Assembly: GCA_043228905.1 (NCBI GenBank)
Contig: JBHGNT010000008.1
Span: 6,200,001 to 6,264,000, forward strand
Reading direction: 5' to 3'
DNA length: 64,000 nt
Source of the DNA: Azolla caroliniana
Taxonomy: Eukaryota > Plantae > Polypodiophyta
Below, piece after piece: positions 20,141 through 59,800 of the stretch. The notes below the pieces were generated by a model. That model was given only the letters and a program-made list of their open reading frames with translations, ran no database searches and was not told where the DNA came from. Both the position numbers and the translations under genes were made by a program. Each line of letters opens with the position of its first letter. Position 1 is the first letter of the stretch.

Positions 20141-20255
20141 CATAGGACAGGATTCGAACCTTGTACCTCCATGTTAACGATTTTAAGCCTTACCACAGGA
20201 TTCGAACCTTGTACCTCCATGTTAACGATTTTAAGCCTTACCACTGTACTAGCAT
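20141..20255 (-). promoter_or_regulatory. tRNA-like Pol III A/B-box cassette in the Gypsy-A 5' LTR (B-box segment duplicated, 48 bp)
   Basis: Minus strand: A box TAGTACAGTGG (20251-20241); B boxes GGTTCGAATCC (20208-20198, 20160-20150); 43-nt A-to-B offset. Confidence 0.7.
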
Positions 20256-30200: not shown

Positions 30201-31399
30201 CACGAATCCGATTGGGCTGGACATCGGGGAACATGGGCAACATTTGCGCAGATCAAACAAAAATATTGGTGGAAGAATATGTACAAAGATGTAGCGGAGT
30301 TCACAGAAAGCTGTGAGAAATGTCAAATCTACTCCGGAGTTCGACACCGAGATGAATTACATCCGACATTATCAACCGACAATCAACTTCAAATGGATGG
30401 TCGACATTGTGGCCATGCCAACCGGGATCAGACAAAAGAAGTACTTGGTGTTAGCCTGGGAAGATCTAACAAACCAAGTAGAAGGACGGGCACTACGGAG
30501 GAAAACATGTTCCGCGGTATGCCAATTTCTCTTGGTAGAAGTGTTCTGCAGGTACAAGTGCGTCAGACAAGTAATTGCGAATCAAGGAGAACTTGACACT
30601 AATAAAGCTAGGGAATTCTTTGTCAGACATGGAGTACGGTTAACACTAACCACGACATACAATCTGGAAGCCAACGGGAAGGTCGAACAAGGACATAGTC
30701 CAATCGTCAAAGCACTTGCAAAAGCATGCGACGGAAGGGTGAAGGATTGGCCGCAGATGCTTCCGAATGCACAATGTGGGCGGATCGCACGACGCATAGT
30801 TCCGTGACCGGTTATATGCTAGCCGAACTTATGAACGGACAAGCACTGGTAATGCCGATGGAAACCGCGATTACAACATGGATAGTGCTATCGTGGAAGG
30901 AAGAAATGAGCCGGGAAGATCTACTAGCGGTCCGGATACGACAACTAGAGGGAAGACTAGAAGACATAGTGGAAGCAACACGTTGACTACAGGAAGCGCG
31001 ATTCTGGAACAAAGGTCGATTTGACACAAAGCATCGACTACGACCACAAAAGATTGAAGGAGATTGGGTGATCATCTATGACAGTAGTTTGGATCATCAA
31101 CATACAACGATACAGAAGTTTGCTAAAAGGTGGTTCGGGCCATACAAGGTTCGGAAAGTTTCCGACAACGGAACTTACCGACTATGTGAGTTGGATGGAA
31201 CAGTACTACGGGTGCCTATAGTGGGGAAACATGTGAAGATTTTCAAGAAGCGGATTGACGACGAACCTTATGTAATCTTAGAGAGGACTGACAACGAGGA
31301 GAAATCGGACAAAGATAGCGGTGATGCGGAAAGCGAAGAAAGTGGACTACAATTGATAATCGACATAAGGGGAGAATTGAGAGTGCTACGGATGAAGGT

Positions 31400-31905
31400 G
31401 AATAACAAGCATCGGGAACTTCGGCACATATCAGAGGATGTGCGGGTTCGGAGGGGGCGAGTGTCGTAGTGTAATTCGCACACTACATGAAATGTGTTAA
31501 AAATATATCCGATTGTAGTACGCATAAATAAATAAAAGAAAATATTTAAAATATTGTTACATATCCGTAGGCGAATAACAAGCATCGGGAACTTTGGCAC
31601 ATACCGGAGGATGTGCGGGTTCGGAGGGGGCGAGTGTTGTAGTGTAATTCGCACACTACGTGAAATATGTTAAAAATATATCCGATTGTAGTACGCATAA
31701 ATAAATAAAAGAAAATATTAAAAATATTGTTACATATCCGTAGGCGAATAACAAGCATCGGGAACTTCGGCACATACTGGAGGATGTGCGAGTTCGGAGG
31801 GGGCGAGTGTCGTAGTGTAATTCGTACACTACGTGAAATATGTTAAAAATATATCCGATTGTAGTACGCATAAATAAATAAAAGAATATTAAAAATATTG
31901 TTACA
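31400..31905 (+). repeat. 173-bp tandem triplication spanning the 3'UTR-PPT-LTR start of Gypsy-A
   Basis: PPT/LTR junctions at 31462, 31635 and 31808, exactly 173 bp apart. Confidence 0.92.
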
Positions 31906-32795
31906 TGCATAGGGCAAGATTCAAATCCTGTACCTCCATGTTAACGATTTTAACCCTTACCACTGTACTAGCATATTATGAGTTTTAATATTATACTAAA
32001 CTTTATCCCATGTAAATATTCTAGATAAGCATGATAGAAAAAGTTATTCATGCATACACACTCGAGTTAAAAGAAAAGATGTGATAGATAGCTAATCATG
32101 CACATGTAGTGTGCATGAAAACTAAAGTTACAAAAAGCATGATTCTTGCATGTGATAAACTTAGACTCTTCCATCACTATATAAGGAAGAGAGAAAGATG
32201 TATATGGTTGTTGATTTTTTATAAGGGTTGATTAATACAAAATATTCGTGGGATTCACGAATTTGCCATCTAATTCTCTCTTACAATCGAAGTATCAATT
32301 AATACACTATACTCGTGGGATTCACAAGTTTCATATCTCCATCTTGCAATCTTTGCTTAACTAACATTATCTCATATTCTTCTTTCTCCTAGTCCAAAAT
32401 CCCAGCGGTTCCCACCCGACTCACGCAAACGATCCGGCGCTGAAAGGCACGACAACGTATAGGATCAGATAAATCCTAGAATCGTCGGCTAGTTGCTGAA
32501 TGTACATACATGGGTCAGAGTCAAATTGGCGGTATACAAGTTTCTTGATGTAGGAGTCAAACTTCTGGTACCATATCCTCAACGCTTGTTTCAAGCTATA
32601 TAGACTTTTCTTTAACCGACATATGAGGTGACAGTCCTCCCCCGTCACCGTGAAGCCTGCTGGTTGAGACATATAGATGTGGATTTGTATACTTTACAAC
32701 ATTAGGTTATTGCTTATATACTAAGCCTCAACTATGTGGACGAGTTCACACTAGGACAGATACAAATTGGAAGGAGTCGATCTTTTATGCCAACA

Positions 32796-33049: not shown

Positions 33050-35643
33050 TGTTGAGCGAACAAGCTCAACCGGATTTGGATTGGCTGAATAACCCAGATC
33101 CGAATCGGAGTTCGGATCAAAGAACCGGATTGGTGTCCGAAACCAGGAGCCGGATCATAATCCGGATCAATATAAACTAGTAGGCCGTTTGAGGCCTACG
33201 AATCTAGCCTAGTACGTAAGCATATGGGAGTCTGTGTTAGTCCCTCGTATGAGCATTGAAGTACATGTCAATACTTCGGTCAGACCTTTGAAGGACTTGT
33301 ATAAAAAGTGTTCTATAGGACATCGTATGTATAGAATATTATTATTTTGAATTGAGTTTACTGTTCTTCTCTCTATGCCTTTCCCGCGTACTCTCTGTGT
33401 GTGACTAAGCTTTCCATTAAACCTGTGCATATTCTCTGTTGCTATACAGTGAAGCCTGTTTCATTTACAAGCTTCCACACGCTACTTTTCACATGGTATT
33501 AGAGGGCGAGTGTGAAAAACCTCTGCTGTTGACAAGCCATTTCCATAGACGAACCCTAACTTCCGAAAAAACACAGACCGAAAAGAAAAGAAATGGACAG
33601 AGGTATGGAAAGCACCGAGAAAAGTACTATGGCAAGAAAGAACATAGAGAGAGAGAGTGCTGGAGGAAGCACGCCGATTTGGATAAATCCGGATCGGCAA
33701 GGCTGGACAAGGGAATCGGCAAAGCTTGCAGTATGCCAAAGAATCAGAAGGATCGGAAACCGAAAAGAGCTGAAAAGGGCCAACCTTTGTGATGAAAATA
33801 AGGTGAACTCGATGAAGAAGACCACTTCCGGATCGTAGGAAGTGTGGTATGTTGATTCTGGAGTATCTAACCACATGACGAGCCATAGCAACCAGGAGAA
33901 ACTGGGAGTTGTTGAAACTAGAGACGACACTCCTCACCCGATTGTGCATGTCGGAGAAGTCCCCTTGAGTCATGTCAAACAAAAAGGGAAGGTTCTGATC
34001 GTGCTTCATGTCCCGACAATCAAAAGAACCCGGTGTCGGTCGGGCAGATTGTCGACCAGGGGATGCAGGTGCGGTTTACACACCTCGGGTGCTTCATTGA
34101 GGAAGAGGGCCAGATCATCGCACAAGGGCACTAGGACGGAAGGATGTTCATCCTCGACACCAATGACGTTGGCACTGCTCTATTCGCCAAAGGACAAAAA
34201 GTCGAGTCAGAGATCGACTTATGGCACAAGAGAATACGCCACGTAAACTATCAAAGGCTTCCAGATTTGCAATCGAAACATGTGGTTTTCAAATTGCCAA
34301 AATTTAGTGGCCGGAAGGCCCAAATATGTGAAGCCTGCCAGCTTGGGAAACAACACCGACTTCCATTCTCCACCAAATGAAACCGCAAACATAACAAGCT
34401 CGAATTGATACATTCGCATGTATGGGGACTGATACAAAACGTTAGTCTTGGGGGGCAACCGATATTTCGTCTCCTTCATCGATGACTACTGCTGGCACAT
34501 GTGAATCTATCTCATTGAGAAGAAAAACAAAGTCTTCGACTGTTTTCCGAACATGCAAAGTCTTATCAAATAGGAAACGGAGCAAAAGATCAAGTGCCTA
34601 TAGTTGGATGGCGGAAAAGAGTATTTTTCTAGCCAATACAACAACTATCTTCAACATAAAGGAATTCGGAGGGAATTCAGATGCTGATATACATCGGAGC
34701 AAAACAACGTTGCCAAGAGGAAGAACCGATCGATTGTGGAGGCGGCAAGGGTGATGCTTGAAGAGAAGAGCATGCCCAAGTTCTATTGGGCCAAAGCGGT
34801 TCGGACGACTGTGTACATTTAAAACCGAATTGGGGATAAGGTGTCACCACACGAGCTATATTTCGGGCGTATGCCGAATCTACCGACTCAGACCCCTGAC
34901 TCAGATCCGATTCTGGAAGATGAGACCAGTGAGCTCGAATCGATCTGGGCAGAAGAAGAAGAAGGATTCGTTACTCTAGATGAGAGCCCAATCTCATTTC
35001 GGCTAAGTGGGCTGAACGAGCGACTGAGTCGGAATGACCAGTCAAATGAAGACCCGTGCTCTCCCTGTGCAAGGTGTTAGGAAACAGGTCCCTCCGGATG
35101 GGAAGTGAGAAGGCCTCAGCCGAAACCGGATGTGGGAGACCCGGCTACGGAAGACCCTTTTACCGGCCGGCAAAGGAGTCCGGAGTGGGAAACGGAGAGC
35201 TAATTAAGTAGTAGGAATGTGGTTGTAATTAAGCTATGAGTGTGGACGGACGAACCGGAATCGGTATGCCGTTCCGGATCCGGACCGATCCCGAACAGGT
35301 GCGGATGGCACCGTTTTGTAATACAGACCAGAAACCTATTTAAAGGCCCGGATACAATGTAATAGTTAGCGGTTAATTAATGAAAGCTTAAGCGTTGTTA
35401 TATCTCTGTGTTAATTGCCGTTCTGTCTTAATTGTTATATCTTACGCGTGTTATGAAGACGATCCTAATAAGTAACTTGATTAAGTCGGATTAAGCGTTG
35501 AAGTCTAATCCGGTTGCCGTAACACCCTTTGGTGAAGTGTCTCCCGTAGACACCCTGTGTTAGGCCATTGTCCGGCCCGAAGAGTTAACACAGTTTTTGG
35601 CGACCACGATTCCTGTTTTTGTAGTGAACGACAACACGGATGG

Positions 35644-38600
35644 ATGTTTAGATCAACGCACGACCTGGTTACAGATCGAACTCGATGCCTTGCCGAAAGG
35701 CAAACGAGACGTGAGGCTTTCCAGCAAGCGGCGCAGGAAATTAGAGCGGATCGCTCGTTTTCCAACGTAATCCGGAGAGTAGCGGAGGACTCCCATTGGT
35801 TACAGCAAACATCGCACCCGGACGACGGCAACAGCCTAAGCAGCCTCCGGGAAACCGAATCCCTTCTCCACGCGTTGGCAAACGGAGAAGGCGAAGTAGA
35901 GGCCTTTTCAGCATATGAATCGGACTCTGAAGGGGAATACAGCGTGCACACGAACTACCGTAGCAGCAACGAAACCCCGGGCGGACCGGAGGACGAAGGA
36001 TCGGATACCTTATCGACACCGGAACCGGAACCGGAAGTGCTAACGCTGGAACCCCCGGAACCAGTAGAAGAAGAACGACCTCCGACACCGGAAGTCAAGG
36101 AGGAGAGGCCTCCGTCACCAAAGGAAGAGAAACAACCGACACCGGAATCAAATCGGGAAAGACCACCGACACCGGAGAAAATTCCGGAATGAGCACCAAC
36201 ACTACCAGCCCGCGCACCGACACCGGACAACGACATGCCGTTCCAGTACTCCAAGTATAGAGATGATCTGGACGCGGAAGCTCATGTGCACGCCTTTGAA
36301 CAAACATGGGAAGCCAACCATGTGTCCCAGCGACTGACACCAGAGGAAGAAGAACGCTCTAAGATAGCAGAGTTTGGCGTCACATTGGAGGGACCGGCAG
36401 CAAGATGGCGCCGGACGCAGGACCCGTCTACCATCAACACCTTTGCAGATTTAAAAGCTAAATTCATGCATTTTTTTCAAAAGGAGGTGGACCAGACCGT
36501 AATGGTAGGCTTATTTTATACCATCTGGCAAGAGGCAGGGGAGAGCATTCCCCAATTTGTCATCCGGTTTCAACGGATGCATAGTCAGCTTACCCGTGCA
36601 CCCCCGGAGGAGGAATTACGGACGATATTCCTAAACGCGCTCCGGGAACCCCTACGCACGGTTTGGACGGTAATCGATTTCCGCACAAGTACCATCGACC
36701 AGGTCATTGACCGGGTGAAAGAGATGGAAAAGACAAGCTCCTGGCTCACACTGGGCGCACTTCAACGGGCGTTACCAACTGATGAAGACCTCCGGTTTCG
36801 GCAAGCAATACAGTGCACAACCTGCTTGAATTCCGGACACTCGGCTCTAGAATGCACTATGAGGACGCAATGTGTAATCTGTCAGTCCAAGAGCCATACG
36901 ACGGATAGGTGCGAGTATAATCTGTTGACTCGGCAAGCACCGCCCGTCTGACAAATTGAGCCACGCAGCAGCCGGGATGAAGAAGACGAACGCTGGCGGC
37001 GAATGGACCATGACCGACCGGCACAGGATGTACGGTATGGCGAGCGACGGGAAAATAATGTCCGGTACGGCGAGCGACGGGATAATGATGTCCGGTACGG
37101 TGAGCGACGGGAAAATGATGTCCGGTACGGTGATCGGCGAGAGAACTATGATCGGCATGATCGGTACCAGGATTACAATAGACGATACGAACAGTACGAC
37201 CGGGAGCACTCCCCCAGGTATCGTCAGCAACGGGAGGAATACGGCAGATATAACGGGCAACCCCATCAAGAGTACCGTAATAAGAAGAGCTTTAACAAAA
37301 AACAGCATTTTAAAAAAGGCGGCTACCCCCGGGATCCGGAACAAGGCGTTCCAAGTAGCCAACCGGTACAAAACCCCGCGCGTACCGTAGGACCTACCCC
37401 GGGTACAACAGACAATGCTGAATCTAGCAATGCCCGGAAAGCCTACTGCTACTACTGCCGACAGGAAGGCCATTATAGTAACCAATGCCCGGTGAAGAGC
37501 TATGAAAAACGACCGGCGGTAAATATGGTAGTCCTTGAGGTGGCAGACTTGCAGCAGGTGACCACAAGGTCGAAGGGCATGGCCAAAGAATGGGAGACAC
37601 AGGAGACCATCCGCAAACAAGCAACGGAATGGGTAAAGAAAGCAAATGAGCAGAATGTCACAGACTTACAACAGCAAAAGGAGAACACCGCAGGGCTTGC
37701 CGGCGGTAGTCACTCCGAGAACGAGACATGGCAGGCGTTGCAAGAATGCCAGATTATGTTACCACTAGGAAGACTCCTACAACTCGTGCCGAGATTCACG
37801 GAAGGACTGAAGACGGCCATGACGGTAGGAGAACCATCACCGGCACCGGTACTCTTCTCGAATCCGGAGGAGGGACCAACAGTGGTAGACACCAGCAGTC
37901 CGGTAATCACTGCCATTGTAAAAGGGAAAGAACTCCCCGACACAGTTATAGACGGAGGCTCTGGGGTAAATGTAATAAGCCTCCGGACGTGTGAGGACCT
38001 AAGAATCCACGAGTGGGAGCCGTGTCCATTTTGGTTGCAGATGGCCGATACAAGCTCAGTGCGGCCGACAGGATTAATACGGAAATTAGAAGTCACCGTC
38101 GGCGGGCATACATTTCACATTTCAGCCGTAGTGCTACAATTACAGGCACAAGGCGCCTACCCGCTATTGCTGGGGCGGCCATTGTTGAAAACGGCACATA
38201 TCAAACAGAATTGGCGAAAAAATATAATTACATTCCGGCGAGGAAAAGCCAAGGTACGGGTACCAACACAGCCAAGGACGAGCACTGGCAAGGAATGTAC
38301 AACGTTGTATGCGGAATGCGTCAACATGCTAGAAGGGTTAGCGGACGAAGAAGAAGCTCAATACCTGCAGGAAAACCCGAAGATCATACCCCTCTTCGAA
38401 ATTGACATTGCCGAAGCCGTAGCACCGTATTTACCGCAACCGGAAGAGGCGGAAGCAGAACCGGATAAAGACGCAATCCGGGAGTTACGGCAAGCGCAGG
38501 AAACGTTGGAACGGGAAATGGCCGTTTCACAGCGCGTAAAAGCATCGCAACTGGAAGAGGTGAATTTAGGCACCACGGACGAAGCAAAACCGGTGCACAT

Positions 38601-41478
38601 CGCCAAGGAGATGAAGTCCGAAGACAAAACGACGATGATAACACTTCTCACGGAATTCCGGGATGTGTTCGCCTGGTCATACGAAGATATGCGAGGACTC
38701 GACCTTGAGTTATACCAGCATCAAGTACACTTGAGCAAGGACGCAAAACCAGTGGCACAAAGACGGTACCGGATGAATCCCAATTATGCTGCCAAGGTCA
38801 AGGAAGAAATCGACAAACTGCTAAGAGTTGGCTTTATCCGTCCGGTAAAGAAAGCGACGTGGCTGAGCCCGATCGTAGTCGTACCAAAGAAGAACGAAAA
38901 AATTCGAGTTTGCGTGGACTACCGGAAACTCAATGCGGCTACGGTAACGGATGCGTTTCCACTTCCGTTCACAGATGGAGTGTTGGATGCCGTCGTCGGC
39001 CATGAGGTCTATAGCTTTCTAGACGGATTCAGCGGGTATAATCAAATCCGGATGCACCCCAACGACCAGGAGAAAACGGCATTCGTCACCGAATGGGGGG
39101 TGTTTGTGGCCGTGGTGATGATGTTCGGACTCAAAACGGCACCGGCAACGTTTGAAAGAATCATCATGGAAATCTTTGGTGAATATATACCGGCTTTTAT
39201 GCAGGTTTTCCTTGACGATTTCGCCGTCTATAGCCGGGAGGAGGACCATTTTTAGCACCTCCGTCTTTGTCTAGAAAAGTGTAGAGCGTACCGGCTAAGC
39301 TTGAATCCGGCAAAGTGTGTATTTGGTGTGTCCAGTGGAACTTTATTAGGACATATTGTGAGCCAGGAAGGTATTGCAGTCGACCCGGACAAAGTAAAAG
39401 CCATATTAGAAGCACCGGCGCCGGCAACGGCAAAGGCATTAAGCCGGTTCTTAGGCCAGATCCGGTGGCACAGCCGGATGCTCTGATACTTGGCCGACCT
39501 GGCTACACCGTTGCATGCTGCCATACATCGGACACCATTCCAGTGGACCGATACTGAGGATAGGGCGTATAAGGCCCTCAAGGTTCTATTGTCGCAGGCA
39601 CCGGTAGTACAACCTCCAGATTGGAGTAAAGAATTTCACGTGTTCGTGGACGCCTCCGACATCGCAATCGGAAGCGTATTGATGCAGCTTACGGAACCAA
39701 AGTGGTACCGGCCAGTGTACTATGCCAGCCGGAAGCTATCCCAAGCAGAACGGAACTACTCTACTACGGAACGGGAAGCTCTAGGAATGATCTACAGTGT
39801 GACAAAATTTCGGCACTATTTATTGGGAAGGAAGTTTTCCTTCCATGTAGATCATTCGGCACTCCTTTACCTGGTGTCCAAGGCGTCACTCACCGGCAAA
39901 TTGGCCCAGTGGACCTTATTGTTACAGGAGTTCGAGTTTGAAATATTCCACCGACCTGGTATACAGCATGCCGTAGCGGATTACTTAAGCCGATTGGAGT
40001 TCGGAGAGACGGGTGACGGAGTACCGGATGAGTTTCCGGATGCGGAGCTGTTTCGAGTCACTATGGAGACAGCAGCAGATGAGACAGTGGCCCAGGAAGA
40101 CAAGTGGCTCACAAATATGCACCAGTTTCTGAGCATAGGACTGCATCCGAAAGAGCTAAACTGGGACGAACGGAAACGCCTGGCGGTACAAAACCGACAT
40201 TTCTGCTTATTGCAAGACACACTGTACCACAAGGGAGCTGACGACATATGGAGACGGGCGGTGCGCAGCGATGAAAAGGATCTGATACTGAGGGAAGCCC
40301 ATTGCGGAGTTGCCGGAGGTCACTATGCCGGAGATGCGACAGCCAGAAAAATATGGCAAAGTGGCCTATGGTGGCCAACGACATTAAGAGATGCGGTACG
40401 GTACGCAAAAGAATGTGACCTATGCCAGAGAATGGGCCAGCCAACGGAGCAGGCTCGTATGCCACACCAGCCGGTACTACCACTTGAGCCATTCCAAAAG
40501 TGGGGGCTGGACTTTGTAGGACCGTTCAAGCCACCGGCACTGAGAACGGGTAATCGGTACGTTATCGTTGCTACGGATTACTGCACGAAATGGGTGGAGG
40601 CCAAAGCTTTACGGGATAACACCGCTGCGTCAACGACAAAGTTTCTATATGAGTACATCTGGTGCCATTACGGATGCCCCATTGAATTGATAAGTGACCA
40701 AGGGGGGCACTTTCTCGGACAAGTAGTGGAAAGCCTAACGACCTTCTATGTCGTGGTCCACAAACGAAGCACACCTTACTATCCACAGGCGAACGGATTA
40801 GCGGAATCAACAAACAAGACGCTCCAGAACATCCTTCGGAAGATCGTCAACGAGAACCAGACGGATTGGGACACAAAGCTACATAGCGCGCTTTGGGCAT
40901 ACCGGACGGCATACAAAACAAGCATCCGAACAACACTGTTCCGGTTGGCGTTCGGACTCGAGGCGGTCATGCCGGTAGAATTTCAAGTACCTAGCTTACG
41001 GATCCAGCTACGAGAACGGCTGAACGAGAAGGAGTCGGAGACAATAAGGTTGACAGCGCTGTGTGAGCTGGAGGAACAACGGTTGGCCAACATCCTACAT
41101 TTAGAATTGGAGCAACGGCGACGGAAAGCATTCGTCGACCGACACAGGAAAGGTAACGAAAAAATGTTCGCAATCGGCAAACCAGTGTTAGTATTCCAAA
41201 CCCGGATGGGCAAGATGCCGGGTAAACTAAGGTTTAGATGGACCGGACCATATTGGCTAACACGTGAGTATAATGGGTCCTACCAGTTGGGGACACTTGC
41301 CGGCGAAGTGCTGGGCAAATGGGTCAACAGATTCCGGTTAAAGGCATATAGAGGACCGATGCCTAAGAACCCGTTTGAGCAAAGGACCGACGGCAACCAC
41401 CAAGACGGCAGAGAAGGCGAGCCGGTAACCGGAGAGAATGTGGCCGGTAAGGGTTCGGGAGGACCAACGGACATGTGA
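35644..41478 (+). pseudogene. Gypsy-C single-frame gag-pol with four nonsense codons (36190, 36949, 39253, 39484)
   Basis: All track ORFs are in one frame: three CCHC knuckles, VIDGGSG, FLDDF, VDAS, H-H-C-C, GLDFVGP, WTGPY. Confidence 0.93.
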
Positions 41479-41556
41479 CGTCACACTAATAATAATAATA
41501 ACTGAAAAAAAGAAAAAGAAAAAAACAAAAAACAATCATGCAAAAGCGAGGAATGA

Positions 41557-44199
41557 ATGGATGAAAGAGCGTGGAGCGAAAAGGTACGTAGTGGGCATTT
41601 AAAGCGCCACCACAGGACATAATGCTATTTTAAGTACGCGACATGCACAAACTCGGAAAAGGCGCCAGAATGCACAGACAAAAACCATTACGCAACACAG
41701 GGCGGCGGAGATATGCTGTTCCGCAAAATTGCTCGTGTGCTCCATGAATACGGCCACGTATACCCTAGACCCCCTGTCATGCCGCAGAACCGGGCAGGGA
41801 TGATCATCGCCACCTATGAAGGGATCAAGGTGGATTGGCTGGTATTGATCGCAGACGGGTTGTGTGCGGCGATCGAGATCGTCAGAGGCAAAGACGGCAA
41901 AGAAGGCCGAGACGAACGAAGGATATGGCACGCCGTAACGCAGTGGCTCACCTTGCTGGTGCCACCCGTTCAGACCGTCCAACCAAAGAAGCGAGGAAGA
42001 GTGCCAGACGGCACCCCAAGGACGGCTTCCAAACAGCAACAGCTGTTGGCCTCTAAGGCCAGTAAGGGAAAGGCGGCGGATGCAGAACAGGCGGCAACAG
42101 GAAGAAGAAACCGGAAGCGCCCAACGGAGGAGGAACCACCGGCATGGCCCATAAAGGTCACACTCCGCCGACAGGTGAATCGAGAAGCGGACCCCTTGGC
42201 GGCAAAACTCAATGCCGGAGCTCAGGAGGAGGAAATAGAGGAGGAGCCTATGGAGCACCTCCAGCGACGGTCGTCAGCAAGGACTGTTGAGACAGCCGGG
42301 AAACGTTCGGACCCTCAGAGAGAGGGAACACCGGCTCCCCATACTGAGACTCCTACGCCAAGGAAGGAACCGGAACCGATGCAGGTGGCCCTGGAAACAG
42401 ATGCCCCGGCACCACCGGCAACACCGGCAAGTCCCATCCCGCCAGAGCCGGAAAGGTCACTACAGCCTCCCTCGGTCAGCCAAGAAGAAGCGCAAGGGGA
42501 CCAAGCACAGCAGGATGGTCCACGGGCAGAAACGGAACTGCAACTCCGCGCAACCAGGCGGGACCACCCCTCTACAAGTGAGCCCATCTATCAAACCTCC
42601 GTGCAAGCACAACAAGGCACCGGTAGCCTGTGGCTCCGGTGGATAGGCGAACAGATAGTCGGAGCGGTGGGGTATATAGAGGCGGAAGAAAGAGCGCAAA
42701 GCGAACGGTTGCTCATCACAACTGAACAACTAGAGACGGCCCGGTCCAGAATCCGGTGCCTTGAAAAAGATTTGGATCAGGTCACGACAGAGATGGCCAA
42801 AATACGGATCCAATCACCGGTGACTCCGGTAAGTGTACAGAATAATGAAACGGAACGACCTGTACATAGGAATAAGACCCCGGGAACGGAAACTGTTCCG
42901 GCGAGAGATGCGGCGCAAGCTCGGGAGCTTGCGGAATTGAGAGAGGAACTTGCCGCACAAGAAGCGCTAAGGAGCCAGGAACGAGAATTGAAGACGGCGG
43001 CCGAAGCCGAATTAAAGAAGACTGTTGAGAACCTCCGCCGGGCAGAGGAGAGCCTCCGGAAAGGCCATCAAGCGTACGACCGGCTAAAGGAGGAGAAAGA
43101 CAAAGTGCTGCAGGAAAAGGACAAGCTGCGGAAAACGGCGGAAACAGAGATTGAGCGGCTAAAGGAAGAGCTCCGCCAGCAGAAGGACCGCGAGGACCAG
43201 GCCCGTCGTCAGATCAACGCACGACTCAAGCAAAAGACGGATGATTTTGAGCACCTGCACCAGGACTACAAACGGCTGGAAACGGAGCATAAAGAACGGA
43301 TGGCCGAGCTCCAGCAGGCAGTTGATTGGGCCGCGACGGCGATCACCGACGAACGGGCGGAAAATACAAGACGCTTGGAAGAGGCGGAGAAGGTCCGGAT
43401 GGAGCTCTAGAGGCAGCAATAGGAAGACAAAGAGAGAGCGTCAACAGTATTGTAGAAATTACAAAGTACATATCAAAGGCAATTGACGCATTACAAGGCG
43501 CAGGCGGAGGACAACGTAAAAATCATCAAACAACTGAAGGAGGAACGGCAAGCGGCGGAAACCAAATCGCAATTGGGAACGAACCGGATTCAGTCCATCC
43601 TTCGGGCATGGCTGAATCAGACGAAGCACTTGATTGATGAAAGCTCCGTAAAATGGTGGACAAAGTGGGCACAAAACGCGGCGGAACTCCAGTTGCTACG
43701 GGCGGATGTGGCAAACCGGCGGAAGGAGGGAGATGACTGTTATACGTTGACTTCCGAGGACTTCACCGCCATACGGGACAAGCTGGCCGACGACTTCCAA
43801 GTCCTGGCAGATAAACAGTTGGCGCAGGTCAGGCAACTCGTAGCTCAGCTGGACGATGATAGGCTGGACGCTCAAATTCAGTTTGAAAGCTACGAGCGGT
43901 CCTAGGTACGGGAAGAAAAAGCACAGGAAGCGACAACGGTTAACCTTAGTGATGAGGAACCGTCATCGGCTGAGGGCCAGCAGGGAACCAGTCAACCGGA
44001 GACCACCACGACGCAGGGAGCAACGACGGAGACGCCGGTGTCAGAGCCACAAACGGAGGAGCAGCCGTAGCAACTACCAACGGACCCGCCGCAACAGACA
44101 ACAACAGAGCAGCAACAACAGCAACGACAACAACCACTTCCAGATGAACCATTGGAGCCTCTCGAACAAAGCATTCTGGACATTTTGGACGAAGAATAG
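41557..44199 (+). pseudogene. Gypsy-C extra ORF (~880 codons): globular N-terminus, P/E/Q-rich linker, long coiled coil
   Basis: One frame from MDERAWSE to ILDEE*, broken only by TAA/TAG codons consistent with C>T changes; heptad-rich at ~42660-43860. Confidence 0.8.
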
Positions 44200-44691
44200 C
44201 AAGGGTCGGTTGTGGATTCGACGTACAAGGTACTGTCCCACGGGCGTGCCATGTGTTACCGGCCGGCAAAGGAGTCCAGAGTGGGAAACAGAGAGCTAAT
44301 TAAGTAGTAGGAATGTGGTTGTAATTAAGCTATGAGTGTGGACGGACGGACCGGAATCGGTATGCCGTTCCGGATCCGGACCGATCCCGAATAGGTGCGG
44401 ATGGCACCGTTTTGTAATACAGACCGGAAACCTATTTAAAGGCCCGGATACAATGTAATAGTTAGCGGTTAATTAATGAAAGCTTAAGCGTTGTTATATC
44501 TCTGTGTTAATTGCCGTTCTGTCTTAATTGTTATATCTTACGCGTGTTATGAAGAAGATCCTAATAAGTAACTTGATTAAGTCGGATTAAGCGTTGAAGT
44601 CTAATCCTGTTGCCGTAACACCCTTTGGTGAAGTGTCTCCCGTAGACACCCTGTGTTAGGCCATTGTTTGGCCCGAAGAGTTAACAGACCT

Positions 44692-49431: not shown

Positions 49432-51999
49432 AGGGGGAGTTTGTCAGGAAACAGGTTCCTCCGTATGGGAAGTGAGAAGGCCTCGACCGAAACCGGATGT
49501 GGGAGACCCGACTACGGATGACCCGACTACGGAAGACCCAGTGAGAATCGGATGATGAGTACCCGACAACGGAAGACTTGGTGAGAACCGGATGACGAGT
49601 ACCCGGCAAGAGCCGGATGGTGAAGACCCGGTGAGAACCAGATGATGTGTGCCCGGCAAGCGCCGGATGATGCAGGCCCGGTGAGGAGTGCTCATCGGAT
49701 GAAGGGACATATTCGTAAATATGTTTCTGAGAGTCCATCTGGACTATATTTGTAAATAGCCGAAAAGTCATATTAGTATAAATATGACTTAGGGCAAACT
49801 TTAGGAAGCAGTTGTCATTCTTGTTGGCGCTAGATTAGGGAGCGCGTAACAATGTACAGAGAGAGAGAGAGAGAGAGAGAGGAAGAGGTCGTTGCCTTTG
49901 TTGTAACCGCCGCTTGTGGCGAAGATCGTGAGCGCGAGGTCGTTGCCTTCGTGAGTTCACTGTTGTAATCATTGTGATATAGTGATAGTTTGGAGTCTGT
50001 GGACTCCCGTGGTTTTTCCCTCTCAGGGTTTTCCACGTTAAACATCCTGTGTACTCTTCTCTCCTTTGTGTCGTGCGTTAATTATCCGTTTTCTGTGTAT
50101 GATTCTAAGCTCGGTTGTGGCCGAGTGTTGCGCATAGGGAGCGTGCAGTTCCTGTCACAAGGAACCGAGGAGATGGTTCACACGCAAAGAGAAGGGGAAG
50201 AAAGAGATGTCGGAATATGACATGGGTAGAGATGAGTCGTATTAGAGCGAATTTGACTCGGGAAAGAATGAAGATGGATCTTCAGAGACGAAGTTTGAGT
50301 CGGTAGAGTGCCTTGAAATCGGTTAACGAGAAGTTATGCCAATCGACCCACCAGAAGAACCTCGTAAAATGGTATGGGTATAATGAGTACATAGCGCATC
50401 ACTATGCATACATGATGAAAGAGGCGGAAGTGCGTGAGCCGGAGAGCTACGTAGAAGCGGCAAAGGACGCACATTGGCGTGCCGCTATGGAGGAAGAGAT
50501 GCGGGCAGTCGATGCCAGCAACACATGGGACTTGGTTGACCCTCCCCGACATTGCAAATTGATCGGCTGCAAGTAGGTATTCAAGGTGAAGTACAATGTC
50601 GATGGTTCGATCAACCGGTATAAGGCCCACGAAATCGACTACGACAAGACCTTCACTCCGGTAGCAAAGAAAATGATGGTCCGTGTGGTGCTTGCAGCTG
50701 TTGTGGCAAGTGGGTGACATCTTCACCAAATGGACGTGGAGAATGCGTTTCTTCAGGGAGATCTTGAAGATTAGGTCCTTGGGATTGAGGTGATGCACAC
50801 CCCCGATGGCATATTGTTGTCCCAGAGACATTATGTGTTGAATATGTTGTTCAAGTTCAGCATGACCGATTGCCGACAAGTCTCTACAACCCTCGACCGG
50901 AACTTGAAGCTACGTCCCGACTCCAGACCAACCTGCAATGAGAAATGGTTCTGATAAATTGTCGGAAGCCTTATATATTTGACAATTGTCCAACCCAACA
51001 TAAGCTATTCGGTCGGAGTGATCAATCAATTTATGCAGAAGCCAATTGTCGAGCACCTTCAGTGCGCGCATCGACTATAATTGTGATATGTGAGTGGCTC
51101 TAAGGATTTCGGACTGTTATACCGACACGGTATAACTGAAAAGCTAGTCGGATATATCGATCCCGACTGGGCCAGTGATGCATCGAATCGTTGGTGAAGA
51201 TTCGGTTTCATGTTTTCCCTAGGGAGCGCAACTATTGCGTGGACAATGGCTCTCTCGAGCATTGAGGCTAAGTATTCGGGTGCTACCGTCATCACCTGTG
51301 AAGCCATATGGCTTCGGCCAGTGTTGCAAGACCTCTGTATCGAAGTATCGACTCCGATCCCGATCTACTACGAGAACATGAGAAGTATGCACCTTGCAAA
51401 GAATCCCGTGTTTCATGCTCACACCAAGCACATTGAGGTGCATTACCACTTCGTGTGCGAGCGGGTCCTGAGCAGTGAAGTCGAACTCCGGTATGTTCGA
51501 ACGGATCGGCAGGTTGTCAACATCTTCACCAAGCCACTCGGATCACACAAGTTGCAACACTTCTCGCATATGCTTGGGCTCCAACATCTCGATGTGCCGT
51601 ACTTGAGGGGGAGAACCGAAAACGGAATAGAAACCAGGAAAATAGGTAATGGCACCGGACAAAGAGTTGGAGAGAAGGAAACAAACAAAATAGGGGTAGA
51701 CAAGAAGAAAAAGGAAGCCGAGTCAACTGAAGTAGTCGGCACATCCGAGCAAGTCGGAACAAGCGGCGCTGGCGGTAGAGTCAAGAAGGACAGAGCCGAC
51801 TGGAAGAAGAAGGCTAAGACTCGGAGGGCCTGAAGATTGAGGGCGAATTGGAGACAACCAATTCAAACAAGAGCTAGAACGAAGTAGAGGCACCCGATTC
51901 GAAAGAGGTGTTTGATTCGGAGGAACTGAATCAACTAAAGGCCAAATTGATGAGAATGCAGCAAAAGTCAACACCGACACGGAGGAGCCGACGGGACGA

Positions 52000-53450
52000 T
52001 GTAAAAGTTAATATGCGGAAGCTTCGATAAACTGGTTGAGCCGGATAACAATAGTTAAACATTCTGTACATATGATGTTTTATAGAACACTTTTTATACA
52101 AGTCCTTAAAAGGACCGACAATAGTACATACAAGCACTTCAATGCTTATACGAGCGACTGACACTAACTCCAAGGAATATGCGTACATACTAGGCTAAGA
52201 TTGTAGGCCTCTAACGGCCTACCGGTTACCATCTGATCCGTCTCTCCGATTCAGCTCTGGCTTATTTAGCCGATCCGGATCCGGATCCGGTTGAGTTTGT
52301 CTGCTCAACACTCCCCCTCAAGCTTAACTTGAGGTCGGATCGTGGTGACAATGTCTGTTGGTCGTTCCCTCCAGATCCTCCTGGCGTCTTCCCACCTTGT
52401 TCGCGCTCATTGACCCATCTGGTCTCACTTTCCACGACCCATCTGGTTCTGCGCCTCTCAACCTTCTCGGTCGGCTTGTCTGCTCATAAGGCCAATCTCA
52501 GCTTTATCACTGTTGTGACTTCGGCGCTTTTTGACCTATCGGTTTCTTTGTGTCGATGTCGACTTCAGCTGCCTTCTCATCCATTTGGCCTTTAGTTGAT
52601 TCAGCTTCTCCGAATCGAACTCCTCTTCCGAATCGAGTGCCCCCGATTCGTTCAAGTCTAGTCCGAATTGGCTGTCTCCAATTCTTCTTCAACCTCCAGG
52701 CACTTCACCACGTCGAACCATGTCCGGGTCTTGGCCTTCTTGTTCTGGTCGGCTCTTTCCTTCTTGACTTTGCCGCCGTCACCGCTTGTTCTGACTTGTT
52801 TGAATGTGCCGACTTCTTCCGTCGACTCGGCTCCATTTTCCTTCTTGTCTGCCCCTACTTCGTTTGATTCCTTCTCTCCGGCTGCTTGTCCGGTGCCATT
52901 TCCTACTTTCCCGGTTTTGGCTTCGGTTCTTCCCGTATTAGTACCGGTTCTCCCCCTGAAGTGCGGCATGTCGAGATGCTGAAGGCCAATCATCTCCGAA
53001 AAGTGCTGCAACTTGTCGGTTCCAAGGGCCTTGGTGAAGATGTCGGTGACTTGCCGATCTTTTCGAACATACTGGAGTTCGACTTCATCGCTCAAGAACC
53101 GCTCGCACACAAAGTGGTAGTGCATTTCTATGTGCTTTGTCCGAGCATGGAACATGTGGTTCTTGGCTAGTTGCATGCTGCTCATGTTGTCGCAGTAGAT
53201 CGGGATCAGAGTCGGTACTTCGATCCGGAGGTCTCGCAACAGCCACCGAAGCTAGATGACTTCATAGGTGGCAATGATAGCGCCCCGATATTCAGCCTTA
53301 GTGCTCGATAGAGCCATTGTCGGCTGCTTTTTGCTTGTCCACGCAACAGCTGCGCTACCAAGATAAAATGAAAACTAGGAGTGGACCGATGATCCGATGC
53401 ATCACTGGCCCAGTCGGCATCCATATATCCGACTAGCTTTTCAGTTATAT
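52000..53450 (-). mobile_element. Copia-6 (family 2): 3' LTR, Pol tail and RNase H; interrupted at 53450
   Basis: LTR 52000-52310; PPT 52311-52322; KHIEMHYHFV and LVGYMDADWASD. Confidence 0.9.
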
Positions 53451-53794
53451 TGTTGTCGTGAAGTTGACGCTTCACGATGACAAAACAATGTCAAAAATAT
53501 ATAGAAAAACATTTCTCATTTGGAGCTTATGACGAGGAGCATGTAGGAATTTTCAGTTCGTGAATATGAGTTGTGAGTTTGAGTTTTGCCAAGTACCTTT
53601 TGGCAAATAAATATTGTAAGTGGTGTTTTACAAATAAAATACTTTTCGTGACAACGTTGCATTCTTTTGGGTCTCATAAGGGCAAGAGTCGAGGAAAATG
53701 AGAAACCGTTGCAAAAAACGAAGGCTGGCTTGGATGTCGGGGTCAGGGACGTCAAGGTATGTACGGAGGAAACGCCTCATGACACGAATCATTC

Positions 53795-55459
53795 TAGCTT
53801 CCGTCGGAGATATCCGAGGGGGTCGTGGAAACACGAGCCAGTTGAACTAGAGGGTGGGTAGTCATGCTTTGGCTGCCTGAAATTCATGCCACAACCAACG
53901 TCATGGTAGTGGAAAAAAGGAGGGGTTTGTGCGCATCTATGGGGGGTTGCAGGGCAAACCATTCTTGGAAGGTCGGGCACTCGAACCATGGGAGCTGCCA
54001 TGAAGGTTGAATACCGGGTGGTTCGATGAGTGGGTCGACCACCTGGTGGTGCCATCCTCGAGTTGAGGTGGGGTTAGCGGTCGCCCAAGTAGACATCTTA
54101 TCTCGGTAAACATGTGGGTAAAGGAAGATGTCGACTTGGGGTTCGGAGGCGACTTTCGGGTAGTAGTTGTAGAGGTAGGTGAGTAGCAGGGGGGCCTCGC
54201 AGAAATCAAACTCCTAGGGGATGGGGGCTGCAGATTGGCTATCGAGGCGGGTGTCCCAACCTTCCCTGTGTTCGATGTAGTCGAGAGTGTCTTGGAGGCC
54301 GTGGGTGAGTTGGTAATGATCTACCAAGTCAGTGTAGAATGCCGCAACATAGAATTGGGAGCTCGTGTGGTGAAGTAGAGGGGGGGTAGTGAAGACAGGA
54401 GGTGGGAGTTGCTGGTGGAGCATGAGGTGCGCGAGGGGGTGGTTGAAAGGGAGGGCTTTGCGGTGTATGGCATCCGTGAATGCCCGACCTGGGTGTGTGA
54501 CGACCTGTGTGTGTAGCGGGAAAGGATCGGTTGGTGGGGAGGTGTACGAAAGGGGTTGCGGTCGAGCATGGGGTGCGTATGATCATGTATGTGGTGTTTG
54601 CTTAGGTGTGGAAGAGTGGGGGGGGAGTGTTGAGGAGGGGGGGGGGGGGGGGGGAGGAAGGTATTGGAGGTGGGGGTGGTGATGAGGTATGGTTAGGGGC
54701 TGGGGTGGGTGATGGTCAGTATCATCGGGTGAGTCAAGGTTCCACTCTAGGTTGATAGCGGATGGGGGGCGGCCAGTGTTCGGAGGTAATAGTGTGCGGG
54801 CACGAATCTCGTCGAAGGCAGAGGTCTAACTCTTGTATGTCGTCAGCCTCGAGATCGGTGGGCTAGTTGAATGTTGCACATTCTATACTAAATATGTGGG
54901 TACGAACCCTGATGTCCCAAGAGTTTTGCCAAGCGTGGATTAACCAAAGGAACCCCAAAGGGGGAACATAGGCAGTAGTGCTCTCCAACATGGTGCGGGT
55001 GAGGGTGTTGGTGATTCGGTGTAAGAGCACAAGCGTGGTGAAGAGTTGGGCCAATTGGTCTTTGTTGACTTGCATTGTGATATTAGAAGGGTAAGTGAAA
55101 CACACAAGGTCGAGGATGTCTAAGTCCAGGGTGATGGCGGTATGGAGGTAGGCCATGCCTGCGAGAAACAAGACAAGAAGGTGTTGGGAGAAAAGGTTGC
55201 CTGCTGGTGGTGGGGGCTCATTGGTAACCTCTGGGTACAACATAAAGAGTGCCAGGGTGTGGTTGTCTTCCGGAAGGACTCGAACGAACGTCGCCCCATC
55301 GGGGGCCGTGGTCTCGTCGAAGAACACACGACGTGTAGCGGCTAACGACCGAAGTACGCACGTGGCCTGGGCGAGAAGGTTGCACGGTGTACGTGGTGCA
55401 GTGAAGAGTATGGAGAGTTGGGATGTTGAGGTCACATACACTAAGAGCGCTTGAATCAT
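53795..55459 (-). pseudogene. Element E ORF2: hydrophobic N-terminal half, poly-Pro/His linker, aromatic-rich C-terminal half (decayed)
   Basis: Track ORFs 54863-55459, 54214-54423 and 53884-54096 (the last two share a frame). Confidence 0.5.
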
Positions 55460-56741
55460 ATTTGGAGTAGATGGGGAGATCTGAACGGTGGAGGCGCCGA
55501 TCGTGCAGAGAGGTCAATAGTCATAGCAGTGAGTTACGTTTCTACCCGTTGGTGTTGTGTGGTGAGGCGTATGTACTCGGTAGAGAGTTCGGCATGTGTT
55601 TGCACTACTTGTTCTTGGTCGTGGCGCCATGTTGTCTAGGCTTGGTGGAACTCATTGGTGAGTTTGTGGCGTCAGGTTTCTTCAGCGAGCAGTTCCTTCT
55701 TGAGGAGTTTGTAGGCGGCGGCTTGGCATGCGTTGGTATGGTGGGCATTCCTTACTTCGGCGGTCAAGACCTCGTTCATTGTGTAGGCCTCCTACTGTTC
55801 ATTAGCGGTCTGTTGGGCCTGTGCGTGGACTTGGAGTAGGCATCGATTCACGACGGAAGTCAACTTGAGGATGTCTGTCACCATGTCAGCTAAGGGTTTG
55901 GGGGTGGTGGCAGGTGTTGGGGTAGCGTGGGCGGTTGTGGTAGTGGTTGGGTTAGGGCTAGGAACATGGGCTGGTGGGGTTTCCGGTGGGGTGGTTTTCA
56001 GGGTGGTATCAGGGGTTGGTTGGGAGGGAACAACTGGGCTTGGAGACGGTGGTGGGTTAGGGTTCTCAAGAGGGGGAAGGGGGGTTTCAACCTCTAGGGC
56101 GTCGATGGGTGGTGGGTTGTGGCGGGCTAGTTTACGGGGTCGAGGTTGTGGGGTGTCGTTGGTAAGCATGGGGGGTGTTGGATGGGTGGTCGTGCAAGGT
56201 GAGGCTGCTAGGGTTTCATCGAGGAGAGAGGTTGTCAAGGGTGGAAGGGGTAGGTCCACCGGGTTCTAAAGGTCGTGAAGGATCGATTTAGTGGTGCAAC
56301 TGCGAGTACGAGGGGTCGTGGCCGTGGTATGATGGGACAATTCCTGGATTTCCGTGGGGGTGAATTCACATATGTGGAAATCTTTTGTGCATTGCGTGAT
56401 ATCCTCGGGTGTATCGAGGGTATCCTCGGCCGCCACATGGGTGATTTGTGGTTGTTTGTGTGCTGGTGGGCGTTCACGTTCGCCTTGGTGGACTTGCCTC
56501 GGGTGTACCAATTGACCAACTCGGGGAGTACACCCCATGGGACAATCCCTAGGAAGAATTGGAGGCTAAGCCGTGAAAGGGTGTCAAAAACATCAAGCTC
56601 GAGGTACTTGAGTTGCGTGGCGGCCGTGGGCACCCGGTAGGTACAACGGGTGTTGTTGAACTCGACTTGAATGACTAAGGAGCCATAATCAGCGTTAGGG
56701 TAGTATGTGTGGAGGAGTTTAGTGAATGGGGTGGACGCCAT
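55456..56741 (-). pseudogene. Element E ORF1: globular N-terminus, P/T-rich linker, coiled-coil-like C-terminus (decayed)
   Basis: Track ORFs 56235-56741, 56266-56538 and 55792-56259 join with one frameshift and a few stops; the frame ends at TGA 55458-55456. Confidence 0.55.
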
Positions 56742-56801
56742 CGATTATAACTATGTACCAACTCTTACACTCCCTTGCTCTCGGTTACACAATAATACTA
56801 C

Positions 56802-59800
56802 TGTAAAAACGAATAGCGTGTGTGGAAGTAATAGAAAACCAAACACAGAAACACAGGTTTAATGGAGATCTTGATAGTACGGGGGAGAGACAGAGAAAGA
56901 GCAGAACAAGTTAAATCTATTACCAAACAATAATAGTTCTCTATACATAGAATGTTCTCAACAACACTATTTATACAAGTCCTAAGAGGATTGACAGAAG
57001 TATGGTGTACTTTAATGCTCATACGAGCGTCTGACACTAACTATGAGACATTAACTACCTAGTAGTCTAGGCTGCTACTAGGCTTCCGATTACTGTTGGA
57101 TCCGGCTAACTGGCTCCCCAGCTCACCGGTTCACTTGCTCACCGGCTCACCGATCCGGCTCATCCTTCCGGATGCCGATCCGGCTCAGGCTTATTCAGCC
57201 GATTCGGATCTGGTTGAGCTTGCTGCTCAACACTCCCCCTCAAGCTCAACTTGAGGTCAGATCGTAGTGTCAGTCTCTATGGCAACCGGTCCTTCCACCC
57301 GGCTCCTTCTAGCGTCACTCCACCTCGCTTGCGATCCTCGTCCGGTCCAGTCCTGTTTTCCGTGACCCTTCTGTTTCTACGCACCTCGACCTCCTCGGTG
57401 GTCTTGTCTGCTCAACAGGCCCAACTCAGCTCCCTCGCTGCTGTGACTTCGGCGCTTGTCGATTCGCCGATTCCTACGTGTTGGCGTCAACTTTTGCTAC
57501 CTTTTCGTTGTCTTGGCCTTGAATTGATCCAGTTCTTCCGAATCCGTCTGTTGAACCGAATCGGTTGTCTCCGATTCGTTCCAGCTCTTGTCCGAATCGG
57601 TCGCTCCCGATTCGTCTTCCGGTTCTAGGCCCTTCACCACATCATACCATGTCCGGGTCTTGGCCTTCTTCTTTCGGCCAGCTCTGCCCTTCTTGGCTCT
57701 CCTGCCGTTGCCGCTTGTTCCGACTTGTTCGGATGTGTCAACTTCCTTTGTCGACTCGGCTCCTTTCTTCTTCTTTTCTCTCCCTTTGTCTGTTCTTCCC
57801 TCACTGGCACAATCGGCAATTTCTTTGCCTTTGCTCGTTCCGGTGTCTTTGCCCGTTCTCCTCCTCAAGTGTGGCACGTTGAGATGCTGAACACCAAGCA
57901 TTTTGGTGAAGTGCTGCAACTTGTCCGATCCGAGTGGTTTGGTGAAGATGTCGGCAACTTGCTGATCCGTATGAACATACCAAAGTTCGACGTCACCGCT
58001 CAGGACACGCTCACGCATGAAGTGGTAGTGCACTTCTATGTGCTTTGTGCGAGCATGGAATATGGGGTTCTTGGTGAGCTGCATGTTGCTTATGTTGTCG
58101 CAGTAGATTAGGATCGGGGTCAGCAGCTCGATCCGTAGGTCTTGCAACAGTCGCCGAAGCCAGATGGCTTGACAGGTGGCATTTGTGGTGCCCCGGTATT
58201 CAAGCTCAGTGCTTGACAAAGCCACTGTTGGTTGCTTTTTGCTGCTCCACACAACAACCGCGCTACCAAGGGAAAAAATATAGCCGGAGGTGGATCGGCG
58301 ATCCGATGCATCGCTGGCCCAGTCGGCATTGGTGTAGCTGACTAGCTCTTCGGTTATACCATGCCGGTATAACAGTCCCCGATCCTTCGTGCCGCTCACA
58401 TATCACAAAATTCGATGCGCGCACAAAAGGTGCTCCACGGTTGGTTTCTGCATATATTCACTGATCACTCCGACCGGATAACTAATGTCAGGTCGAGTGA
58501 TTGTCAAATATATAAGGCTTTCGACGATCTGTCCGAATCGCTTCTCATCACAGGTCGGTCCGGAGTCGGGACGGAGCTTCTGGTTCCGGTCCAAGGGTGT
58601 GGAGATCAGCCGACATTCCGTCATGCCGAACTTGTACAACATATTCAACACATAGTTTCTTTGTGAGAGCAATATGGCGTCAGGGGTTTGGATCACCTCG
58701 ATCCCAAGGAAATAGTGAAGATCCCCTAGGTCCTTCATCTCAAATGTGTCTGATAGTTGGGACTTGACTCAACTGATTTCCTTGAGTTCGGGTCCGGTGA
58801 TGACTAGATCATCAACATACAACAAGATGCAAACCGGACCATTCGGACTTTGGCGGATGAACAACGAAGAGTCAGACTTGGAGGCCACAAACCCCATCTT
58901 ACGCAACCGGTGCGTGATCTTCGCATTCCAAGCTCGGGGGGCTTGCTTCAGGCCATAAAGTGACTTCTTCAGCCGGCTTACCGCCGACTTGTTCATCTCT
59001 GTCTGGAAACCGGGAGGTTCATTCATAAAGACCTCTTCTTTAAGATCGCCTTGAAGAAATGCATTCTTCATGTCCATCTAGTGAAGATGCCACCCCCTTG
59101 CCGCAACAACCGCCAGCACCACACGAACCGTCGTCATTTTAGCTCCCGGAGCGAAGGTCTCGTCGTAGTCGATTCCGTGGGTCTGCGAGTATCCCTTCGC
59201 CACTAACCGGGCCTTGTATTGGTTAACTGAACCGTCAACATTGTACTTTACCTTGTACACCCACTTACATCCGATCGGTTTACAATGTCGGGGAGGGTGA
59301 ATTAGGTCCCATGTGCCATTGGCATCAAGTGCCCACATATCTTCCTCCATAGCGGCACACCAATTTGCGGCTTCTGCCGCTTCTACGTAGCTCTCTGGGT
59401 CACGCACTTCCGCCACCTTAGTCATGTACGCATAGTGATGTGCCATGTACTCATTGTACCCGTACTGCTTCATGGGGTTCTTTTGGCGGGAAGACCGGCG
59501 TAACTTATCGTTTCTCAGTTTGAGACCCTTCTTGTTTGGTTCGGTCTTCGTTGCCGAAGATCCGCCTTCTTCTTCTTCAGAGTCGGGTTCGCTCCGATCC
59601 GACTCACCATTGCCGGTCTCATGCTCCGGCATCTTCCTCTTCCATTTTCCTTGCGCGTGAACCGTCTCCTTGGTTCCTTGCTTGGGGAGAGCACGACAAA
59701 GTCTCCATTACTCGCCGGTTCCTCATCCGATTGGTCATCCCGACTCAACCGTTCATTCGGTCCACTTAACCGAAATGAGATCGGACTCTCTTCTAGAGTG

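What the first reader, a model, noticed from the sequence alone, without database searches (positions are those of the whole stretch)
53451..56801. Element E: two unknown ORFs coupled by an ATGA stop/start overlap, one possibly membrane-associated
Seen: 3.3 kb with strong strand skew and no gag/RT/INT/transposase motif I can recognise. ORF1 (globular domain, P/T-rich linker, helical tail) ends at TGA 55458-55456, overlapping the ATG of ORF2 (55459-55457). ORF2 has hydrophobic stretches (MIQALLVYVT..ILF, HLLVLFLAGMAYL, PLGFLWLIHAW), a poly-Pro linker and a W/Y/F-rich tail. The terminal ~205 bp is LTR-like and begins with a hairpin (tcgtgaag-ttgacg-cttcacga). Known: AUGA overlaps drive termination-reinitiation in several viruses, and Athila/Tat/SIRE elements carry extra ORFs. 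Inference: a bicistronic accessory (env-like or anti-silencing) cassette of an LTR element whose pol lies beyond the window.
Basis: partly seen in the sequence, partly recalled or inferred. Interest (0 to 1): 0.75.

Follow-up and report, generated by a model that had tools for sequence, protein, structure and literature searches.

The report
Broken copy of giant retrotransposon gene
The two "coupled" genes are pieces of one decayed copy of a single 1,429-amino-acid gene that, in intact relatives, sits at the tail of a plant jumping gene and likely serves as its accessory regulator; the stop/start overlap is a by-product of a deletion in this copy.

Summary
The ATGA is there, but the two-gene reading fails. 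The window copy lacks about 550 nt and about 220 nt (both frame-shifting), carries 11 in-frame stops in 978 aligned codons and is cut at residue ~1290. 'ORF2's ATG' is internal Met668; the TGA closes only 25 open codons. dN/dS is 0.12-0.27 in the single frame, also in the segments the window lost. In 4 of 4 loci that reach the stop, it abuts a polypurine tract and a ~570-bp LTR; one LTR is followed by a tRNA-Asp-type primer site, pointing to an Athila/TatII-like Ty3/gypsy element. Its gag-pol was not seen. No transmembrane helix is conserved. The terminal ~205 bp is a separate repeat, not this family's LTR. The protein has no Pfam or PDB match; a weak language-model lead links its N-terminal domain to PMD/DUF1985. 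Verdict: dead fragment of a new, unusually large sense 3' extra ORF, a known kind of gene.

The parts
56802..57232 (-). 3' LTR of an unrelated Ty1/copia element that bounds the fragment on its 5' side (PPT just upstream; RVT_2 and gag_pre-integrase at 59-61 kb)
   Evidence: (LTR copies at 12.5 and 18 kb)
56742..56801 (-). Remnant of the leader before the extra ORF; lacks ~33 nt that in L001 and in one run-X1 contig hold a branch-point-like CTAAT and a CAG acceptor-like site
   Evidence: (table 5c); splice role inferred
56515..56741 (-). Start codon and codons 1-76 of the extra ORF (N-terminal domain, first third)
   Evidence: 81% identical to P0035 1-79
56499..56514 (-). Junction of deletion 1 (about 550 nt, P0035 residues ~77-265, frame-shifting): removes most of the N-terminal domain
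   Evidence: lost segment present in L001, L004, L005 and covered in runs X1-X3
55491..56498 (-). Residues 266-583: polar segment, P/T-rich linker, first half of a predicted coiled coil; 5 in-frame stops
55468..55490 (-). Junction of deletion 2 (about 220 nt net, residues ~584-664, frame-shifting): removes the second half of the coiled coil and creates the apparent two-ORF layout
55456..55459 (-). ATGA = internal Met668-Ile669 codons of the single ORF, not a stop/start coupling signal
   Evidence: same ATGA in L001; 5 of 22 in-frame Met codons of P0035 form ATGA
54820..55467 (-).
54545..54819 (-). Poly-Pro/His linker with several frame-shifting indels
53669..54544 (-). Residues ~998-1290: aromatic-rich C-terminal region; 5 stops, one frameshift; cut off ~140 codons before the family's stop, PPT and LTR
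53451..53668 (.). Separate repeat of about 205 bp with imperfect inverted ends and a terminal hairpin (MITE/TIR-like, inferred); not this family's LTR
   Evidence: (summed contig depth several-fold above the ORF bins in X1, X3, X5)
52306..53449 (-). RNase H end and 3' region of another copia copy, interrupted at 53449
   Evidence: loose ends at 53449 in 65-81 contigs in 3 of 4 runs

Best explanation
The 3.3 kb is a dead, twice-deleted and 3'-truncated copy of one 1,429-codon extra ORF that in intact relatives ends directly at the polypurine tract and 3' LTR of a plant LTR retrotransposon, likely an Athila/TatII-like Ty3/gypsy, and likely encodes a soluble accessory protein. Shown: single frame in relatives, the deletions and stops here, purifying selection, position and sense orientation before PPT and LTR. 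Inferred: lineage (from one primer site), gag-pol upstream, expression from a spliced sub-genomic RNA (acceptor-like site just before the ATG). Most likely mechanism of the intact protein (about 40%): a non-membrane, nuclear regulator in which an N-terminal PMD/DUF1985-like domain binds DNA or chromatin, the ~200-residue coiled coil oligomerises it, and the C-terminal domains recruit partners, helping the element escape silencing or target integration. The window copy makes no such protein.
For: P0035/L001 172-4461 is open for 1,429 codons. tblastn maps residues 1-79, 266-580 and 657-1288 onto the window. Of 57 proteins fetched, 8 span the junction in one frame, at 40-100% identity to P0035; L004 does too (876-codon frame). 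dN/dS against L001: window 0.24 (95% bootstrap 0.20-0.29), L002 0.12, L003 0.18, L004 0.24, L005 0.27; segments lost here 0.28 (0.14-0.54) and 0.17 (0.10-0.27). In runs X1-X3 both lost segments are covered as deeply as their flanks, a contig bridges each 5' breakpoint without a gap, and neither window joint is among the 15 joints shown (22 not shown). Stop-PPT-TGTTA..CACA is shared by L001-L004, which diverge beyond it; TGGCGCC.. primer site 6 nt after the LTR in L004; tRNA-Asp is the main primer of Athila (72%) and TatII (37%) (PMC6317226, supplement 3; match of the motif to tRNA-Asp is recalled). Best 19-residue hydropathy in P0035 is 1.28. Atlas hits for residues 1-270 include DUF1985 (0.85) and PMD (0.84) clusters of Streptophyta.
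Against: gag-pol of the parent was never seen; L001 holds only 171 nt upstream. The primer site rests on one contig. Seven proteins start at or just before Met668 (P0001, 2, 11, 12, 13, 15, 17) and their upstream DNA could not be read; P0035 has no Met between 459 and 668, so broken copies or contig ends would give this, but a split subfamily is not excluded for them. The PMD link is weak: Atlas scores are under 0.9 (a lead only), Pfam finds nothing for the domain, and the model is unreliable (pLDDT 48). A short run-X11 contig keeps the CTAAT but shows no AG acceptor before the ATG. The loci come from plant-containing metagenome assemblies, possibly another species than the window's.
Confidence: 0.9

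Rival explanations
1. One reading: a functional two-gene cassette coupled by termination-reinitiation at ATGA, at least in a derived subfamily.
For: ATGA is present. One X2 contig spans the junction with 7 differences in 353 nt, so the junction is real DNA (record 12). Seven database proteins begin at or near Met668.
Against: Only 25 codons are open before the TGA; 4 stops lie in the coil upstream; the N-terminal domain is also deleted out of frame; 'ORF2' is itself broken. Eight proteins and two loci read through. The X2 contig has single-copy-like depth (9) and may be the same locus.
Confidence: 0.03
2. The intact protein is an env-like, membrane-anchored protein for movement of particles between cells.
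For: Position and orientation match env-like ORFs, and an acceptor-like site precedes the ATG, as reported for Bagy2 (PMC7264820, parts 1-2 read).
Against: No 19-residue window above 1.40 in 7 of 7 homologues tested (P0035: 1.28); the window's best stretch (1.69) has a charged residue at its centre in 12 of 13 homologues viewed. No dedicated TM or signal-peptide predictor was available.
Confidence: 0.12
3. The ORF is the only gene of a non-autonomous LTR element (no own gag-pol) or a structural, particle-associated scaffold rather than a chromatin regulator.
For: No gag-pol seen; long coiled coil and Pro-rich linkers fit a scaffold; TE coiled-coil accessory proteins are predicted to oligomerise (PMC13547354, passages).
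Against: The ~480 nt after the primer site in L004 do not match the 171 nt before the ATG in L001, so more internal sequence lies between; two other contigs holding the gene are 13.8-14.2 kb, the size of a full element (suggestive only).
Confidence: 0.2

Closest known systems
Sense 3' extra ORFs (eORF-3'F / aORF-3S, 'env-like') of plant LTR retrotransposons: Athila, Bagy2, TatII, SIRE (PMC7264820; PMC6317226)
   Same: Single extra ORF in sense just before PPT and 3' LTR, kept by selection, acceptor-like site upstream, tRNA-Asp-type primer site in the family
   Different: 1,429 aa (the sunflower Athila ORF is 487 aa, PMC11728184 passages); no conserved TM helix; no match to Athila ORF-1 PF03078 or Transposase_32 PF20167
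Ogre/Retand extra ORFs with PMD (PF10536), Transposase_28 (PF04195) and Smc-like coils (PMC6317226; PMC11963269, passages)
   Same: Globular N-terminal domain with a weak PMD/DUF1985 lead, then linker and long coiled coil
   Different: Those ORFs are mostly antisense; no Pfam match here; about 760 extra C-terminal residues of unknown fold
VANC anti-silencing proteins (DUF1985) and MAIN/MAIL1 PMD proteins (bioRxiv 10.1101/2024.09.27.615353 and PMC13547354, passages)
   Same: Possible shared N-terminal fold family (lead only)
   Different: VANC is encoded by MuDR DNA transposons of dicots; no sequence match, no binding shown
AUGA termination-reinitiation of viral bicistronic RNAs (recalled)
   Same: The four letters
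   Different: No open upstream ORF, overlap made by a deletion, single frame in relatives

Membership tests
Bicistronic termination-reinitiation cassette | Open upstream ORF ending at the overlap | tested here: not met
   25 open codons, 4 stops in the coil upstream
Bicistronic termination-reinitiation cassette | Two-frame layout conserved among relatives | tested here: not met
   8 proteins and 2 of 2 loci that cover both sides read through; 7 proteins starting near Met668 could not be checked
3' extra ORF of an LTR retrotransposon | ORF of 250+ codons directly upstream of PPT and 3' LTR | tested here: met
   4 of 4 loci that reach the stop
3' extra ORF of an LTR retrotransposon | Purifying selection among copies | tested here: met
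   dN/dS 0.12-0.27 in 5 of 5 pairs
3' extra ORF of an LTR retrotransposon | gag-pol upstream in the same element | not testable with these tools
   no genome held; L001 has 171 nt upstream
Athila / TatII (non-chromovirus OTA) | tRNA-Asp primer-binding site after the LTR | tested here: inconclusive
   seen in one contig, L004 4333-4350; assignment to tRNA-Asp recalled, not aligned
Athila / TatII (non-chromovirus OTA) | RT-RH-INT phylogeny; extra RNase H absent (Athila) or present (Tat) | not testable with these tools
   pol not recovered
env-like membrane protein | Conserved transmembrane helix | tested here: not met
   hydropathy maxima 1.09-1.40 in 7 homologues; simple scale only
env-like membrane protein | Spliced sub-genomic mRNA | tested here: inconclusive
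   acceptor-like site in L001 and one X1 contig; no RNA reads
PMD / DUF1985 / Transposase_32 clan | HMM match at gathering score | tested here: not met
   0 of 17 alignment members and 0 for the trimmed domain
PMD / DUF1985 / Transposase_32 clan | Shared fold | tested here: inconclusive
   pLDDT 48 model, no clear PDB match; Atlas 0.84-0.85

The most novel reading that the evidence does not exclude
A non-seed-plant (perhaps fern) Athila/Tat-like retrotransposon encodes a 1,429-residue, VANC/PMD-like anti-silencing protein with two or three C-terminal domains of undescribed fold, made from a spliced sub-genomic RNA: an LTR-retrotransposon counterpart of the VANC counter-defence system, far larger than described extra ORFs.
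Probability: 0.25. Interest if true: 0.6.

Novelty: new member of a known kind. Interest (0 to 1): 0.27.

Why it matters
The claimed novelty (translational coupling in a retroelement cassette) is a by-product of decay, a useful warning for single-copy ORF calls in repeat-rich genomes. What remains is an unannotated protein family: the function of plant retrotransposon extra ORFs is an open question (PMC7264820), and this one is very long, conserved and available as a natural intact copy, so its domains can be studied. The window copy itself has no likely function.

Tried and rejected
Structure prediction gave unreliable models (pLDDT 48 and 33); fold searches found nothing (PDB Foldseek 0 at E<=0.001 for both; VIA best Z 5.2 on a helix pair), which says nothing about the folds. 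PDB sequence search with the N-terminal profile: 0. Atlas for residues 1010-1400: no usable hit. C-terminal homologue search: 2 close relatives only; 50%-representative search: 21 hits, all unnamed. Viral contigs: no match. Rfam on L001 and L004: 0. No tRNA-Asp-type primer site in the window. No homology between this N-terminal domain and the extra ORF of the neighbouring gypsy. No RNA holder listed; 4 short contigs of a run guessed to be RNA (X11) are no evidence of expression. Single-family PMD scans on L001 could not be run because the record is not held. Helitron 3' end for the terminal piece rejected: no CTRR after the hairpin (motif recalled). Earlier scan notes held nothing on this sequence. 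Four paper searches listed no description of this family; I saw listings only for most hits, and the library lacks most subscription papers. bioRxiv supplements were not seen.

Full report
Observation. [quoted passage not shown] The finding lies on the minus strand between a copia 3' LTR (57232-56802) and an interrupted copia RNase H (53449 downward). The six-frame translation shows that neither ORF is open: the first needs a frame change and several read-throughs, the second stops after 198 codons.

One gene, not two. Searching with the 198-residue piece gave 7 near-length and 3 longer proteins. Its DNA, L001 172-4461, is one open frame. The window carries residues 1-79, 266-580 and 657-1288. 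Codon-level alignment shows two frame-shifting losses of about 550 and 220 nt, several small indels, 11 stops in 978 aligned codons and truncation at 53669. The second loss removes half of the coiled coil and puts a short off-frame tail in front of internal Met668; ATG-ATx gives ATGA by itself, as at 5 of the 22 Met codons of the intact frame. Of 57 proteins fetched, 8 cross the junction in one frame, including P0009 at 40% identity, and L004 does so as DNA.

The losses are this copy's own. Contigs from DNA runs that hold the window (organism A) cover both lost segments on L001 as deeply as the flanks, and single contigs cross each 5' breakpoint without a gap (X1 135-507; X3 1754-2087); the window's joints are not among the 15 shown of 37. 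One X2 contig at depth 9 spans the window's ATGA junction at 98% identity, so the junction is real DNA and not an assembly error.

Selection. Against L001, dN/dS is 0.24 for the window (0.20-0.29) and 0.12-0.27 for L002-L005; it is 0.28 and 0.17 in the segments that the window lost. These are pairwise Nei-Gojobori counts sharing one reference, so they are not independent.

The parent element. In L001-L004 the stop codon overlaps a G-rich tract followed by TGTTA; the four loci stay alike for about 570 nt to ..ACACA and then diverge, which marks a 3' LTR. In L004 that LTR is followed after 6 nt by a TGGCGCC.. primer site and a leader with tandem repeats, i.e. a tandem element. I recall this motif as complementary to tRNA-Asp; Neumann et al. 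list tRNA-Asp for Athila (72%) and TatII (37%) (PMC6317226, passages and supplement 3). The gag-pol was not recovered, so the lineage is inferred. The window holds none of this LTR; its terminal ~205 bp is another repeat with imperfect inverted ends and higher summed depth. A branch-point-like CTAAT and CAG lie about 30 and 10 nt before the ATG in L001 and in one X1 contig and are missing in the window; a spliced message as for Bagy2 env-like (PMC7264820, parts 1-2 of 3 read) is plausible and untested.

The protein. Layout of P0035: N-terminal mixed alpha/beta domain (1-247), polar and P/T-rich linker, coiled coil (about 448-650; weak matches to many coil families only), helical domain (668-900), poly-Pro linker, aromatic-rich C-terminal region. 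It is not predicted to span a membrane: the best hydropathy window is 1.28, and the window's most hydrophobic stretch owes its score to substitutions in this copy. Pfam, PDB and fold searches are blank or uninformative. The one lead is the Atlas, whose hits for residues 1-270 include DUF1985 and PMD clusters at 0.84-0.85, below its own reliability line. PMD occurs in 57% of Ogre elements (PMC6317226, passage), retrotransposons encode PMD-A proteins, and PMD resembles the DUF1985 domain of the anti-silencing protein VANC (bioRxiv 10.1101/2024.09.27.615353, passages; PMC13547354, passages); Retand ORFs pair a related-type domain with Smc-like coils (PMC11963269, passages). I therefore put about 40% on a nuclear DNA- or chromatin-binding accessory role, 20% on a structural scaffold or sole gene of a non-autonomous element, 12% on env-like, and the rest on other roles.

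Verdict. The bicistronic ATGA cassette is not real. The sequence is a dead fragment of a conserved, unusually long sense 3' extra ORF: a new member of a known kind, of modest interest (0.27), higher if the PMD/VANC link and the unknown C-terminal folds hold up.

Noticed in passing
window 44215-44254 (+), gypsy element about 35160-44620: No purine tract before the 3' LTR; a tRNA-3'-end-like sequence ending CCA sits 2 nt before the LTR, as in the PPT-less family noted elsewhere in this genome.
   Followed up: partly
window 41623-44150 (+): The same gypsy element has its own sense extra ORF after pol (595 open codons, then stops): short N-terminal domain, P/E-rich linker, long coiled coil; no Pfam family at cut-off and no detectable homology to P0035.
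   Followed up: partly
L004 3755-4831: Tandem arrangement: extra ORF, PPT, LTR, then primer site and a leader with ~33-nt tandem repeats.
   Followed up: partly
window 57497-57900, 52658-52980, 12918-13400 (-) and 51600-51833 (+): This copia family's pol frame runs about 100-150 codons past RNase H into a K/E/G/T-rich tail before the PPT, in 4 copies.
   Followed up: no
window 1494-2891 (-): 465-codon open frame with no Pfam match; looks like a host exon, with a DEMMSWL-type motif that I recall from phytochrome-interacting bHLH factors.
   Followed up: no
window 31396-31914 and 20042-20495: AT-rich 173-bp tandem unit in three copies with a related copy 11.7 kb away.
   Followed up: no
P0007, P0010, P0019, P0034 at P0035 residue 720: Four proteins leave the frame or end at the same poly-C run (L001 about 2324-2330), a slippage hotspot or assembly error.
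   Followed up: no
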